Below are positions 2 through 56,298 of a stretch of DNA of 64,000 nucleotides, piece after piece. A model generated the notes under the pieces. It was not told the DNA's origin, made no database searches, and saw only the letters and a list, made by a program, of their open reading frames with translations. Numbering within the stretch: the stretch's first letter is position 1; every line of letters starts with the position of its first letter. Origin of the DNA: Fimicolochytrium jonesii (Eukaryota); NCBI RefSeq assembly GCF_025526975.1, contig NW_026515670.1, positions 744,001 through 808,000 of the forward strand, given 5' to 3'. Made by a program: the position numbers and the translations under genes.

Positions 2-376
2 ACACCACCGGCCAACCCCGTCGACGACACCACCGGCAAATCCTTCGACTCTTCCCCCGAGGTCTGGGACGTTGGCTACTATAACGAGACATTAAGCACA
101 CCCGTTGCGCCTGCCGGTCAGGTCCGTCTCCAGTCCGACGTCGGCATCTCCCGTGACCCTCGTACCAAGCAAGAGTTTGCCAAGTACGTTGGCCGTCAGG
201 ATGACTGGAACAGGGATTTCACGGAGGCGATGGTGAAGATGGGAAAGAACGGATGGACCAACCTTGTTGAGTGCAAGGGTATTGTGCCGGCGCCCATCCC
301 GTTGCCTGCTGGAACAGGCGACGCATCTTGCCAGGGCAACAACGGAAACGGGAAGGGTAACTGCAAGGGTAACTAG
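2..376 (+). CDS. 3' end of a heme peroxidase, fungal class II-like (peroxidase-catalase superfamily); 5' part outside window
   Basis: Frame 2 is open from the window start to TAG at 374-376: ...GKSFDSSPEVWDVGYYNETL...GQVRLQSDVGISRDPRTKQEF...QDDWNRDFTEAMVKMGKNGWTNLVECKGIVPAP. This matches class II motifs FDSTP..FD, RLQSD..LARD.RT, F..AM.K and L.DCS.V.P. It is absent from the ORF track because its start is outside the window. Confidence 0.8.
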   Translation, partial: TPPANPVDDTTGKSFDSSPEVWDVGYYNETLSTPVAPAGQVRLQSDVGISRDPRTKQEFAKYVGRQDDWNRDFTEAMVKMGKNGWTNLVECKGIVPAPIPLPAGTGDASCQGNNGNGKGNCKGN

Positions 377-2179: not shown

Positions 2180-4888
2180 TCACACGTCTTCAGTGATGGG
2201 AAAGACATTCGTTTTGGTAATCTCTTTGGTCGTAGGCGATCCCGCCGTAAATTTATCCTTTTCGGTCTTCTCACCCTTCTCGAGATTGAGAACGCCGATG
2301 GACCCCGTGCGCGTTTTGACGGGGGCGAGGATCTTGAACCGGCTCGAGAACGCCTGAAGCTTGTCGATGTGTTCTTGGAACTCAGTGATACGTCCCGATG
2401 CAGCGGTGTTGTTAATGACGCGGACGAGACCAGCAATGCGGTCGCGGTGCTCTCGAGCCAACTGCTTTCCATCCTGCACGTAGATCGTGGCAGGCGCTGG
2501 CGCGATATGGGCGTTCGACGTGGGGATACCGTTGACGACGGATGCAGCCGCACCAAGGCGAGGGGACAAGTTGGCCATGGATCCGACCGACCCGTGTGAG
2601 GCGAGGGATTGCGTGCCTATGCCTAAACTCATCGACGCCTTCCTGGTATTCTGGCTGAGAGGCATGGGTTTGCCGGTCAAGTCCTGCGACGCCTTCCTCC
2701 CGTTGCCGCTCTTGACGCCAGACGCCTCGTCAGACGAACCCCCTGCGTGTGTCGAACGGTCTGTTCCGCGGAGGAGACGGCGCATGTGCTCGCGGGTGTT
2801 GGTTTGCGGGGAGAACACCGTAACCATCAGTTTGGGGGCGAACAGCGCGACGAGGCAGCCGGTAGCCCCAAGGAAGATGCCCCCGCTGTAGATGACGAAA
2901 CGGCCTTGGAAACTGTTGACCATGCTGTACACTCCCAGGCAGATGGTGAGGATAAACGTGGTAGAGAAGGTGGCTGCGGCAATGGCTTTACTCTGAGAGA
3001 ATGGAAAGACATGCGGACGTTAGCGTACTGAGAAAGGTCATGATGTTAAGCCAGGTCTCTTTCCTCACCTCATTCAAAGCGGAGCTCAAGTCCCTTAACT
3101 TGAAGCAAAAGTAGCCAGCAGCGGACAACATCACATACTTGATAGCCAGAACGACGCCCAGGTACTCAGACGTGTGCTTCCCATCGCAAGTGTAGTAGAA
3201 GGTGCGGTCGCCGTCCAGACTGTTCAACGTGGCAACCATGGGGTCGTGGACAGTCCACACGAGATACACCAGGGCATTCACGGAGCAGATCGCAAACACC
3301 CACTGCATGATCGCCCAGTTTGTCGCCTTAAACTGAATTACCGAGGACGCCGAGAACAGGAACAGACGGTAAAGACGGTAAGACTTGACGATGATTGCGG
3401 CGAAGGTGATATCAAAACCCAGACCCAACACCCAGGGCATCGCGCGACACACTTTGGTCAGCGTCGCGGCCGACACGCCTGGCAGCGGCTGTTGAAGGCT
3501 GTTGACGAGGATGGAGATGTAGACGGTTGCGATACCGATGAGAATCACATTGTTGAAGAAGTAGGAGGACCCTTTGATGATGGGCGTGTTGCGGTAGATA
3601 AGAGCAAACGCCGCCGCTCCGACCGTCAATATCAATCCGATAGCACCGAGAGCTAGTTGCGCACATGGGGAAACCACTCGTCAGCACATCATGCACACAA
3701 GCTGTTATATGTAGAGATAGAATCGCAATCCTCACCTATCATGGCATGCAAAGAACCGCGCGAGATGGCATCTGGCGGGAACAAATCACTGGTGATAGAT
3801 TCTTGCTGATTGGCAATGAACGCTTTCAACGTGGTGCTTCCGTAGGGCATGAAGACCTGCACAGCGCCGGAGTCAGCCACTTTTGAGATGTAGGTCAGGT
3901 TGCGGGTCAAGACATTGAGGTAGTTCGCGACGTCCTATAAATGAGAAGTTTCAGCATACATTGTACGTGGCGAGCATTTTCTCTGTATTCTAATCAATAA
4001 ATTTACCTGCATAACGTTATCAGGTGTGCCAGCAGGAAGCCCCATCCCGCGATAGATACCATCGACATAGTTGATGCCGAGTTCTTTGAAGGTGGGCGCG
4101 TCGATTTGTGGAAACTCGAATTCGGCAGCGATGGCGAGAGTGCGGAGATCCGGGCGGTTGAAGACAGCGGGAGTGGTTGTCCAGGCAGCACGGTATTTGC
4201 CCTGCGAGGTTGGGAAAAGAAGAAATGGGTTAACATAAGAAGGCCTGCCTTAAGCGGGAGTTCCTCACAGATTCGTGAGGTCACGCGTCCCTCCGCTCTC
4301 TCCGCTCACACATTCGACACATACCTGCAACAGAGCAGTGATAGCCACATTGGCACCATCCCCTGCACTCTCATATGCAACATCAAGTCTAGCCAAGCGC
4401 TTCAACCTCAACGTCGCCAAATCAAACACCGTGCCTTTCGCGGCACCGGAAATAATCATGCTCGAGTTTCCAGTACGGCAGGCATCCACGAAATCCGCCC
4501 AGGTCTGGATGGTCGAGTTGGACGGGACGATGAGAGCCAAGGGGGTATACGAATGGATATAAGCAATCTTGATATCATCAAAAGTGTAATTGGCGACGAA
4601 GCCGGGGTATATGGGCTGCAGCATGGTGTGCGGCAGGTTGATAAGCGTAACGACGCTGCCGTCTTTGGGGTCGTTCTTCATGTTGGCCCACGCCGCGGCG
4701 CCGCTGTTGGCGGCATTGTACACGAGCTTGCTGCCGGGGATGAAAGGCGCTTGCAGCTCGGCAATCGAGGCGGAGCCTCCGCCCTTTGCGAATGGGACGG
4801 TGTAGCTGAACGGACCGTATGGCCACGCCGCCAAGGCCGGTGACACGGCCGCCACGGCGAGCGCGAGTTTGAGGAGATTGTAATGCAT
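2180..4888 (-). CDS. Class C (7tm_3, GABA-B-like) GPCR with N-terminal signal peptide and TctC/Bug-type substrate-binding domain, about 784 aa
   Basis: Manually spliced exons 4888-4325, 4201-4007, 3934-3736, 3652-3069 and 2992-2180 (all GT-AG, phases consistent). N-terminal region: MHYNLLKLALAVAAVSPALA|AWPYGPFSYTVPFAKGGGS...DGSVVTLINLPHTMLQP...HSYTPLALIVPSNSTIQTWADFVDA...AITALLQGK...LRTLAIAAE...DAPTFKELGINYVDGIYRGMGLPAGTP. 7TM region: YRNTPIIKGSS, C..MPWVLGLGFDITFAAIIVKSYRLYRLF, LNESKAI, LFAPKL. Confidence 0.9.
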
Positions 4889-53895: not shown

Positions 53896-56298
53896 ATGGC
53901 GTCACCACCGTCCCTCTTCGACGAGCTATTCCTGCGGCGCAGGCCGTCACAGCCCGGGTCGGTGTTGCATCCGTTTCTCAGAGAGCCAGGAATCATTGGA
54001 ACCGACGAAGAAGACCGTTTTGAAGGGTCACCCCTTTCTCGCAAGAGCTCACTGGCAAAGAGGAGTGCAGAAGATGCTGCAGGTGTCATTAGAGAGGGAG
54101 GGCGCAGGCCGAGTGCGACGCCGGCAAGCCCGGCCAGCTCTGGAAACGGCGAAGTGCGACGACCTAGTGTCATTGACTCTCGGAAGGGGAGCTTATCGCA
54201 CATAATAACTGTACGTCCATCAGTGGGAGCCTCTCAGCGACTGTCGCCGGTCGATGCGTCGGAAGAGGGAGCAGCAGAGCGAACAGCTGCGGATGCTCTA
54301 GGCGACTTGGGTCATGTGCACCACCACCACCACTTCCCGCAACCCCATGTCCCCGTACGAAGTCACAGTGCAGATGAACAGATTGTCACTCCTCCGGTCC
54401 CGGCTCGCACGCCAACTGTTCAGTGGGTGGATCAATCATCAAGGTCGCCACCGTTACCCACCCGAACCCCCAGCAATGAAAGTAAAGAAAGTAAAGGCAC
54501 ATCGACAGCAGATCTACCATCCAGCCCTACAGTCGCGAGGCAATTCGGTGTAATTGGAACACAGTGGGACCCCTCAACAGCGAAAGCTCGTCCTCAGATG
54601 ACTTCAATTGCGCGTATCCTCGCTTCTGGGACAAGATTTGGGAGCACCGCTGCTGATAACGATCTGACCGTGCGGACGGCTCCGCCGGGGTTTGACATGG
54701 AAAGGAGGGGAACAACAGCGTCGTGCTCTACTTGTGATGGAAAGGGCGGAGAGCCACCAGCGAAGGAGTGGAAGGACCAAAGGTCCGAACATACCATGAT
54801 TAGCGGCTTTGTCAACGCGGATATGGTAAGCACACGTGAAGGTTTCTGATGCCCGATGAGTGCAAGGCGGTCCACTAATCGACTCTGTTGAACACGCCAG
54901 CTCAAACTCCGCGACTTCCTGATAAAACTCTCCCGCGCCTTCGCCATGTACGGCGCCCCATCCCACCGCCTCGAATTCCACCTCCGATGCGTCGCGGACG
55001 CGTTGGAAGTCGAAGGCAACTTCTTCGTCATGCCCGGAATGATCCTCATCAGTTTCGGAAACGACGACCACTCATCCAGCACCCACCTTGTCCGCGCGCC
55101 GCAGGGCTTCAACATGTGGAAGCTGTCCGCTATCAACATGTTGTGTCGGCAACTGACAGAGGGACAGGTTCTCATCCAGGAAGCACTCGACCGACTGGTG
55201 GAGATCAGATCACAGAAGGAATACAAATCTTGGGTGTTCCTGTCAACCTTCCCGGTTTCGTCGTGGGGTATTGCGATCATCGGGTTCAACGCCAACTGGG
55301 GCGAGGCGCTGATGGCTGCTATTTTGGCGACCATGGTTGGCCTGTTTTCGTTGGCGGCGGAGCGGTTGCCGTCATTTACGTACTTGCTGGAGTTCTTCTC
55401 GGCCCTCGTGGTTGGCATCTTGGTCAGGGGCTACAAGCACCTGTCGGGAGATGGATGTGTGGATGAGACGGTCGTAACTTTGTCCGCTTTGGCTATCTTG
55501 CTACCGGTACGTTGCTTCCCATGCTTGGCCCGGTCAGCGTCGAAGGCTAACTTGGTTTTTCCCTTCTCTTTCTTCCAGGGATTGAGCTTGACGATCTCCA
55601 TCATCGAAATCTCCACACGTAACATGGTTTCTGGTAAGTCAGCTTCTAGCCGTTGTTATACTCCAATTCGGTGCCAACAGACTCACCGATCGATCCCCAT
55701 CTGTTTCTCCGAAGGCTGTGTACGTCTCTTCCACGCCCTCTTCACAGCCATGCTCCTAGGCTTCGGCATGTCAGTCGGCCCCCTCCTTATCGACTCCGAA
55801 AACAAGGACATGAACCGCTCCGCCACATGCACCAACTTCCCCTCCCAATACTGGTTCTTCCTCTTCTACCCCATGATGGCCGTCGCCATCTGCATCTTCT
55901 TCCAAGCTCGCCCCAAACAATGGCCTATCATGATCTTCGTCTCCGTCCTCGGCTTCGTCACTTACTTCTTCCTTAACAAGGTCGACTCGATGAAGAATAA
56001 CGGTGGGCAGATACCTATGGTGCTCTCCGCACTCGCTATCGGTCTTGCGTCCAATATCTACGCCCGAATCAGCCACGACCTCGCCGTCGCGCCGATCCTG
56101 TCCGGTATCCTGCTGCTGGTGCCCGGAAGTTTAGGCGTCAGGAGCACACTGGGGTTCTTGGGAATAACCGCTGGCAGCGGAACAAATTTCGCCTTCCAGA
56201 TGCTGATTATTGGCTTGAGCATCACTATCGGGCTTTTCGTTGCCACGCTGTTGGTGTGGCCCATTCGTGGGCCGAAGCTCAAGTATATGACGTTTTGA
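53896..56298 (+). CDS. PRM10: PRM10-like / ThrE (DUF1212) threonine-serine exporter family membrane protein
   Basis: Disordered first exon, then LRDFLIKLSRAFAMYGAPSHRLE, AILLP|GLSLTISIIEISTRNMVS|GCVRL, PKQWPIM, GILLLVPGSLG, MLIIGLSITIGLF. About 10 TM segments; introns at about 54826-54900, 55507-55578 and 55634-55714. Confidence 0.88.

What the first reader, a model, noticed from the sequence alone, without database searches (positions are those of the whole stretch)
2180..4888. Class C GPCR whose ligand-binding domain is a bacterial TctC/Bug transporter receptor
Seen in sequence: one spliced ORF of about 784 aa. It has a signal peptide, a domain of about 290 aa with TctC/Bug hallmarks (P.F..GGG, DG...NLPH..LQP, YTP.ALIVP.NS..QTW.DF, TALL.G, LR.LAIA, PTFKELG...G.YRG...PAGTP), a short linker with no cysteine-rich domain, and a class C 7TM (TP.IK.SS, C..W.LGLGF...K.YR..F, NESK.I, FAPK). 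Two spliceosomal introns lie inside the TctC-like domain, so it is an integrated eukaryotic gene, not contamination. Established: TctC/Bug proteins are type II periplasmic binding proteins of bacterial tripartite tricarboxylate transporters that bind carboxylates such as citrate, amino acids and aromatic acids. Canonical animal class C GPCRs instead use a type I Venus flytrap. Non-animal class C receptors with other bacterial-type binding domains are known, but I do not recall a TctC fusion. Inference: a horizontally acquired transporter receptor was recruited as a GPCR sensor, possibly a carboxylate or amino-acid chemoreceptor for zoospore chemotaxis or germination.
Basis: partly seen in the sequence, partly recalled or inferred. 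Interest (0 to 1): 0.92.

Follow-up and report, generated by a model that had tools for sequence, protein, structure and literature searches.

The report
Chytrid receptor with bacterial TctC sensor
A chytrid fungus gene joins a bacterial transporter-type binding domain (TctC) to a GABA-B-like seven-helix receptor body and likely senses a small organic acid such as malate or tartrate; this domain pairing was already catalogued in 2012-2014, so it is a new member of a known kind.

Summary
Confirmed: five minus-strand exons (four GT-AG introns) give a 784-aa protein with signal peptide, complete TctC/Bug domain, roughly 8-residue linker, class C 7TM and long tail. All four junctions align without gaps to 10 chytrid relatives. 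Profile, PDB and fold searches agree on TctC plus a GABA-B-like 7TM.

Not new: de Mendoza 2014 (supplement) lists 'TctC//7tm_3', and Krishnan 2012 lists the ortholog SPPG_00031. This scan also found the fusion earlier on another genome (e1-7175211).

Added here:
(i) The public model of this gene is cut short by reading into intron 2.
(ii) The best-scoring bacterial TctCs sit beside malate racemase or tartrate dehydrogenase (13 of 40 loci vs 0 of 40 controls, post hoc); some sit in sulfolactate-type clusters. This points to malate-like hydroxy acids.
(iii) The fungal pocket is conserved but has lost the family's signature Asp, so the ligand may have changed.
(iv) The tail holds an unassigned, conserved 55-aa folded module.

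Bacterial origin is inferred; two AU tests did not fix a donor. No RNA, binding or signalling data.

The parts
4325..4888 (-). Exon 1 (aa 1-188): signal peptide (aa ~1-20) and first two thirds of the TctC/Bug domain, with pincer loop 1 (PFAKGGGSA), NLPH, YTP and pincer loop 2
4202..4324 (-). Intron 1, 123 nt, phase 0, GT..AG, two in-frame stops; also spliced out in the public model P0010
4007..4201 (-). Exon 2 (aa 189-253): TctC domain with WTTTP, PTFKELG and GIYRG
3935..4006 (-). Intron 2, 72 nt, phase 0, one in-frame stop; the public model P0010 reads into it and ends at 276 aa
3736..3934 (-). Exon 3 (aa 254-320): last helices of the TctC domain, short linker, start of TM1
3653..3735 (-). 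Intron 3, 83 nt, phase 1; an in-frame alternative AG at 3677 would insert 8 residues that none of the 10 relatives has
3069..3652 (-). Exon 4 (aa 320-514): class C TM1-TM5, with invariant C388, C475, K409, R412 and E514
2993..3068 (-). Intron 4, 76 nt, phase 0, inside the NESK motif
2180..2992 (-). Exon 5 (aa 515-784 and stop): TM6-TM7 with FAPK, then the cytoplasmic tail, whose middle part is poorly conserved
2324..2488 (-). Conserved C-terminal module (aa 683-737), predicted strand-helix-helix-strand, no family assigned

Best explanation
The gene encodes a class C seven-helix receptor whose outer domain is a TctC/Bug binding protein, likely taken from bacteria, and it likely senses a small organic acid, most plausibly a malate-like hydroxy acid (malate, tartrate, sulfolactate). 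Shown: gene structure, domain order, conservation across about nine chytrid species, and conserved pocket-loop and 7TM residues. Inferred steps: (1) the ligand binds in the cleft and the two lobes close, as in solved Bug proteins; (2) the last TctC helix joins TM1 through about 8 residues with no cysteine-rich spacer, so closure would pull directly on the 7TM, as the GABA-B stalk does (recalled), probably within a dimer; (3) the TM3 Lys/TM6 Glu pair (K409, E514; ionic-lock role recalled from mGlu and GABA-B) would open and a heterotrimeric G protein be activated; (4) the folded tail module would dock a partner or control trafficking. Odds: architecture 0.97; a ligand-binding pocket 0.8; an organic-acid ligand 0.55; malate-like hydroxy acid 0.35; a zoospore chemotaxis or germination role 0.3.
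For: Gap-free junctions; 52-66% identity in the ectodomain and 58-69% in the 7TM against 10 relatives. All 11 PDB sequence hits at E<=0.001 are TctC/Bug proteins. Foldseek on the ortholog model lists 14 TctC/Bug rows first (best E 1.3e-17), then GABA-B (E 1.4e-10), GPR156 and CaSR. The ectodomain is as conserved as the 7TM (90 of 285 vs 82 of 261 invariant columns), and 28 of 36 pocket-loop columns are invariant vs 62 of 249 others (loops chosen after seeing the alignment). C388, C475, K409, R412 and E514 are invariant in 11 of 11 rows. Context: of 40 genome loci with TctC scoring >=100 bits on the fungal profile, 9 have a malate racemase and 7 a tartrate dehydrogenase above NCBIfam cut-offs, 13 with either; 0 of 40 loci with lower-scoring TctC do (Fisher p 8e-5). 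Of the four best plasmid hits by E-value, two lie in a UxaA-pair/TctC/TctA/hydroxyacid dehydrogenase/Ldh cluster matching the published slcHFG-slcC-comC-suyAB sulfolactate layout, one lies beside two tartrate dehydrogenases, and one beside an enolase-family acid dehydratase. TctC proteins act as signalling sensors in bacteria (BctC-BctDE; PMC5812351 passages).
Against: No transcript, ligand or signalling data. The near-universal motif P-F-x-A-G-G-x-x-D (PMC5812351) has Ala for Asp in 10 of 10 fungal rows with a residue, against Asp in 28 of 35 near and 96 of 106 other bacterial rows. The following Arg is Glu/Gln (alignment-dependent, near a short deletion) and the loop-2 His/Gln is Glu/Asp. 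The fungal stem is long (1.7-1.9 changes per site). Two AU tests did not reject trees with the fungi outside the near subfamily (p 0.39; p 0.71 with the constrained tree 12 log units better than the free one), so nesting and donor are not shown. My first ligand idea, sulfolactate alone, failed the control (SuyB-like >=55%: 4 of 40 vs 3 of 40). The malate/tartrate signal was found post hoc among 34 gene families. The 13 loci form about 7 related groups and come from two phyla only, and 27 of 40 loci have neither marker. The fold model used an alignment with 78 bacterial TctC rows, so its fold is partly given.
Confidence: 0.55

Rival explanations
1. Ligand switch: the receptor works the same way, but after the fusion the pocket was rebuilt for a non-carboxylate ligand (a polyol, an amine or another neutral or cationic solute).
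For: Loss of the signature Asp and Arg, a new acidic residue in loop 2, a fungus-specific invariant WTTTP and a long stem branch.
Against: The glycine backbone of both pincer loops, the docking Phe (F33), NLPH, YTP and G-x-Y-R-G are kept as in the bacterial relatives. The review notes that Bug proteins can replace loop residues with hydroxyl-bearing ones and still bind carboxylates.
Confidence: 0.27
2. The ectodomain binds no ligand and serves as a structural or dimerisation part, like the GABA-B2 flytrap (recalled); the receptor is constitutive or activated through a partner subunit.
For: The signature Asp is lost. S. punctatus has 14 class C receptors that could be partners (PMC3251606).
Against: Conservation is concentrated in cleft loops (28 of 36 vs 62 of 249), which fits a used pocket.
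Confidence: 0.12
3. In this species the locus makes a short secreted TctC-only protein (intron 2 retained), as the public annotation has it, and the fused receptor is not the main product.
For: P0010 (276 aa) equals the model for 253 aa and then reads into intron 2. The Gaertneriomyces semiglobifer record P0009 also stops early, at 360 aa.
Against: The short product lacks the last TctC helices (aa 254-300). Ten relatives run straight across the junction. A full 781-aa protein lies in P0009's own 90% cluster. P0004 is cut in the same way at intron 4, which points to gene-calling slips. P0001 (722 aa, longest contig 2419 nt) leaves almost no room for introns and is probably an assembled transcript of a fused ortholog (inference; contig not fetched).
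Confidence: 0.05

Closest known systems
Fungal class C GPCRs with type II periplasmic-binding ectodomains; TctC//7tm_3 architecture (de Mendoza 2014, PMC3971589 supplement); SPPG_00031 (Krishnan 2012, PMC3251606)
   Same: Same domain order. SPPG_00031 is a likely ortholog, 60% identical in the ectodomain and 61% in the 7TM.
   Different: Those papers only list the architecture (Krishnan as LysR_substrate). In the parts I read they give no subfamily, pocket analysis, ligand or tail module. The species behind the 2014 column cannot be read from the text of the figure.
Bacterial TctC/Bug binding proteins (PF03401: BugD, BugE, Bug27, AdpC, MatC, TphC, SlcH)
   Same: Whole-domain homology (best pairwise 35% over 287 aa, P0026), predicted type II fold (TM-score 0.72-0.84 by target length), both pincer loops.
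   Different: Fused to a GPCR, no TctA/TctB seen in the window, introns, and the signature Asp replaced by Ala.
GABA-B receptors and GPR156 (class C without a cysteine-rich domain)
   Same: Closest solved 7TM folds; TM3 and ECL2 cysteines, TM3 Lys/Arg, NESK and xPK motifs; no nine-cysteine domain.
   Different: The ligand domain is type II TctC (about 280 aa), not a type I Venus flytrap, and the tail carries an unassigned small module.
Anaerobic gut-fungal class C GPCRs with type II sugar-binding domains (Seppala 2016, PMC5168858)
   Same: Same design: a bacterial type II binding protein on a class C 7TM in zoosporic fungi, with repeated fusions proposed.
   Different: Their domains resemble ABC sugar-binding proteins; 'TctC' has 0 occurrences in that paper's main text.

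Membership tests
Class C GPCR (PF00003) | 7tm_3 profile above the curated cut-off, seven hydrophobic helices | tested here: met
   114.7 bits vs 33.5 on exon 4 alone; seven segments; GABA-B closest fold
Class C GPCR (PF00003) | TM3-ECL2 cysteine pair and TM3 Lys/TM6 Glu pair (roles recalled) | tested here: met
   C388, C475, K409, R412 and E514 invariant in 11 of 11 rows
Class C GPCR (PF00003) | Couples to a heterotrimeric G protein and works as a dimer | not testable with these tools
   Needs a cell assay; no full-length dimer was modelled
Canonical animal class C (mGlu, CaSR, T1R) | Type I Venus flytrap (ANF_receptor) plus nine-cysteine domain | tested here: not met
   No ANF_receptor or NCD3G hit on the exons or on 9 relatives; one ectodomain Cys
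TctC/Bug (PF03401) | Whole-domain homology to TctC | tested here: met
   7 of 9 relatives above the cut-off; P0010 carries precomputed PF03401; 11 of 11 PDB hits are TctC; 216 bits on a bacterial profile. Single exons are under the cut-off, and SPPG_00031 has no Pfam TctC hit.
TctC/Bug (PF03401) | Type II periplasmic-binding fold | tested here: met
   Ortholog model, ectodomain pLDDT above 90, Foldseek E 1e-17 to 1e-12 against Bug structures; the alignment used held bacterial TctC rows
TctC/Bug (PF03401) | Loop-1 signature P-F-x-A-G-G-x-x-D | tested here: not met
   P, F and the glycines are kept, but Asp is Ala in 10 of 10 fungal rows with a residue (motif from PMC5812351). This lowers 'canonical Bug pocket', not 'TctC-derived domain'.
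TctC/Bug (PF03401) | Binds a carboxylate | not testable with these tools
   Only the gene context of bacterial relatives was examined
Tripartite tricarboxylate transporter (TctABC) | TctA and TctB membrane partners encoded with it | tested here: inconclusive
   None among the window ORF pieces scanned (21 pieces, not every ORF); no whole genome held
LysR_substrate ectodomain (2012 label of the ortholog) | LysR_substrate as best profile match | tested here: not met
   No LysR_substrate hit at E<=0.1 in 9 relatives including SPPG_00031 or at E<=1 in the exons
SlcH (sulfolactate-binding TctC) | Nearest bacterial relatives lie specifically in sulfolactate clusters | tested here: inconclusive
   2 of the 4 best plasmid hits do, but 4 of 40 vs 3 of 40 in the controlled sample; no characterised SlcH sequence was compared

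The most novel reading that the evidence does not exclude
A single ancient capture of a bacterial malate/tartrate/sulfolactate-binding TctC gave one chytrid lineage a hydroxy-acid chemoreceptor in which a type II binding protein drives a class C 7TM through a near-direct helix link, with a rebuilt pocket and an undescribed folded tail module. It would be a small, soluble, easily screened sensor domain that could de-orphanise a chytrid class C receptor and show how such receptors swap sensor modules.
Probability: 0.3. Interest if true: 0.58.

Novelty: new member of a known kind. Interest (0 to 1): 0.3.

Why it matters
The fusion itself is in print, so the claim of a new receptor type falls. What remains useful is a short, testable ligand list for an orphan chytrid receptor, a corrected gene model, and a compact model for how a type II binding protein can switch a class C 7TM without a Venus flytrap or cysteine-rich domain. 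My paper searches listed no study that assigns a ligand to a chytrid class C receptor; the library lacks most subscription journals. If the ligand is confirmed, it would name a chemical cue for soil chytrids and offer a swappable sensor module for engineered receptors.

Tried and rejected
No whole genome is held, so paralogs and G-protein genes were not examined. No RNA holder was listed; this is no evidence either way.

Scans with the ectodomain alignment found nothing in metagenome, genome or viral contigs. The scan with P0001 returned 58 loci at 25-36% identity and not its own contig. Phage records gave no match, although the Atlas listed viral TctC clusters among its nearest hits.

Sulfolactate as the specific ancestral ligand was not supported by the control. 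Nesting inside the near subfamily, and any named donor, was suggested by starred branches of quick trees but not upheld by AU tests; the careful tree did not finish. Rows were thinned before the trees: 187 to 152, 63, 86.

Tail module: no Pfam hit for the window's copy and only two single weak hits among 10 members; no PDB sequence hit under E 0.1; no usable Atlas hit; no Foldseek hit at E<=0.001; best VIA Z 6.1, to generic helical hairpins. The two-copy complex job on the module gave no answer. Alignment A4 had a wrong window coordinate and was replaced by A5.

The search 'TctC'+'GPCR' listed 30 papers, none on this topic by title. In the 2025 eLife GPCR paper, 'tctc' had 0 occurrences in the main text and in the 1 supplement held. 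PMC13267403 was not relevant. Supplement file 1 of PMC3971589 could not be searched and may name the species. Contamination was rejected (introns, GC3, eukaryotic neighbours, orthologs).

Full report
Observation. The minus strand holds five exons, 4888-4325, 4201-4007, 3934-3736, 3652-3069 and 2992-2180, with four GT..AG introns of 123, 72, 83 and 76 nt. Hydropathy shows an N-terminal signal-like segment and seven membrane segments from aa 310 to 575. No genome and no RNA run were available, so the junctions were tested by homology: all four align without gaps to 10 related proteins. A public protein, P0010, labelled Fimicolochytrium jonesii, equals the model for 253 residues, so it uses intron 1. 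It then reads into intron 2 and stops at 276 aa. I read this as a gene-calling slip, because the short form lacks the last TctC helices and two other records are cut in similar ways while a close cluster-mate is full length.

Domains. On single exons Pfam gives 7tm_3 at 114.7 bits; TctC is the only family on exons 1 and 2, each below the cut-off. Of 9 relatives, 7 pass the TctC cut-off (35-56 bits vs 27) and 8 carry 7tm_3; none hits ANF_receptor or LysR_substrate at E<=0.1. A profile of 8 fungal ectodomains finds 11 PDB sequences at E<=0.001, all TctC/Bug. The spliced model scores 216 bits over nearly the whole of a bacterial-only profile, and the two Spizellomyces proteins that Pfam misses score 213 and 193 (partly circular). 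An AlphaFold2 model of the Powellomyces ortholog (mean pLDDT 78.8, ectodomain above 90; alignment with 78 bacterial rows) matches Bug structures first and GABA-B next.

Distribution. Relatives come from Powellomyces, two Geranomyces, two Spizellomyces, two Gaertneriomyces, Phlyctochytrium arcticum, Borealophlyctis (two copies) and one environmental record; their placement in Spizellomycetales and Rhizophlyctidales is recalled. The search of 1.84 billion representatives found 6242 proteins at E<=0.001. The best three are this fungal family (406-542 bits); then there is a drop to 170 bits. Most of the other 147 listed have the length of a free TctC or a fragment, and the five longest that I read are not GPCR fusions. 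A second, more distant TctC-GPCR lineage below 72 bits would not have been listed. The gene is resident: introns, GC3 close to its neighbours', ordinary eukaryotic neighbours.

Origin. The best bacterial matches form a subfamily sharing NLPH..QP, YTP and G.YRG, separated by a score gap from generic TctC in two phylum samples (301 and 401 genomes). The best pairwise identity is 35%. Quick trees put the fungi, on a long stem, inside or beside that subfamily, but AU tests did not reject placing them outside it (p 0.39; p 0.71 with the constrained tree more likely than the free one). A bacterial origin is therefore inferred from the narrow fungal range against a very large bacterial family; neither donor nor nesting is shown.

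Ligand. The first named relatives lay in clusters resembling the slcHFG-slcC-comC-suyAB sulfolactate pathway. I tested this on 40 loci with TctC >=100 bits and 40 with lower scores (15-kb regions, chosen mainly for room on the contig; three of the high loci repeat earlier ones). Sulfolactate-type genes were not enriched (4 vs 3). An unbiased clustering (34 families in four or more loci), followed by NCBIfam cut-offs, showed malate racemase in 9 and tartrate dehydrogenase in 7 high loci, 13 with either, and none in the controls. A plasmid locus outside that sample has two tartrate dehydrogenases beside its TctC. Malate, tartrate and sulfolactate are all short 2-hydroxy acids with a second acid group (established chemistry). 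The signal is post hoc and the loci are related, so it is a lead. Against simple inheritance of the ligand, the fungal pocket has Ala for the signature Asp, acidic residues at two normally basic or His positions, and its own invariant WTTTP. Cleft loops are much more conserved than the rest of the domain (28 of 36 vs 62 of 249, loops chosen after viewing the alignment), which favours a pocket in use.

Mechanism. By analogy with Bug structures (PMC5812351 passages), ligand would close the two lobes. In the ortholog model the last TctC helix ends at residue 301 and TM1 starts at 309, so closure could act on the 7TM directly. The class C cysteine pair and the TM3/TM6 charged pair are invariant (roles recalled). 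G-protein coupling, dimer formation and any zoospore role are inferred. The tail is poorly conserved and predicted disordered, except for a 55-aa module that folds with high confidence and matches no family.

What is known. Krishnan 2012 (PMC3251606; passages and a supplement search) lists SPPG_00031 among fungal glutamate-family receptors, with a LysR_substrate domain, beside OpuAC, PBP_like_2 and SBP_bac_1 fusions. De Mendoza 2014 (PMC3971589; passages and part 1 of supplement 3) names TctC//7tm_3 as an architecture; the species cannot be read from the figure text. Seppala 2016 (PMC5168858; passages) describes type II binding domains on about half of gut-fungal class C receptors. Rosa 2018, PMC11452294, PMC10507020, PMC12716839 and PMC13267403 were read as passages only.

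Verdict. A real, conserved chytrid class C receptor with a TctC-derived sensor, in an architecture already catalogued: new member of a known kind, interest 0.3. The added value is the corrected gene model, a short ligand list, the altered pocket and the unassigned tail module.

Noticed in passing
window 2324-2488 (-): Conserved 55-aa tail module, 38-64% identical across 9 relatives while the flanks are 9-47%; predicted strand-helix-helix-strand with mean pLDDT 88.6; no family found.
   Followed up: yes
window 3935-4006 (-): The public protein record for this gene (P0010, labelled Fimicolochytrium jonesii EV422DRAFT_516998) reads into intron 2 and loses the whole 7TM. No separate record of 341 aa or more holding exon 4 was listed; shorter lengths were not searched.
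   Followed up: partly
P0004 and P0009: Two more public records are cut short: P0004 just after the position of intron 4 (suggesting a shared intron), P0009 within TM1. Counts of this architecture from annotations are probably too low.
   Followed up: partly
P0006 and P0025: Borealophlyctis nickersoniae has two copies of the receptor.
   Followed up: no
window 2-376 (+): An open frame running off the window's start resembles the C-terminal part of a heme peroxidase (recalled resemblance; no Pfam hit at E 1e-5).
   Followed up: partly
window 54892-56298 (+): ThrE-family putative threonine/serine exporter.
   Followed up: no
L066 2459-13977: A Paracoccus seriniphilus plasmid carries a compact cluster resembling DHPS/sulfolactate catabolism (HisD-like, SDR, ADH, GntR, UxaA pair, TctC/TctA, two dehydrogenases, exporter). 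Its second TctC scores only 35 bits on the fungal profile vs 158 for the first.
   Followed up: partly
ESM Atlas result: Three of the four clusters shown as nearest to the ectodomain were mostly viral (Uroviricota) TctC-like proteins; the phage and viral-contig searches found no close relative.
   Followed up: partly
PMC3971589 supplement, page 3: The same figure also lists a TctA//7tm_3 column, an odd pairing that was not examined.
   Followed up: no
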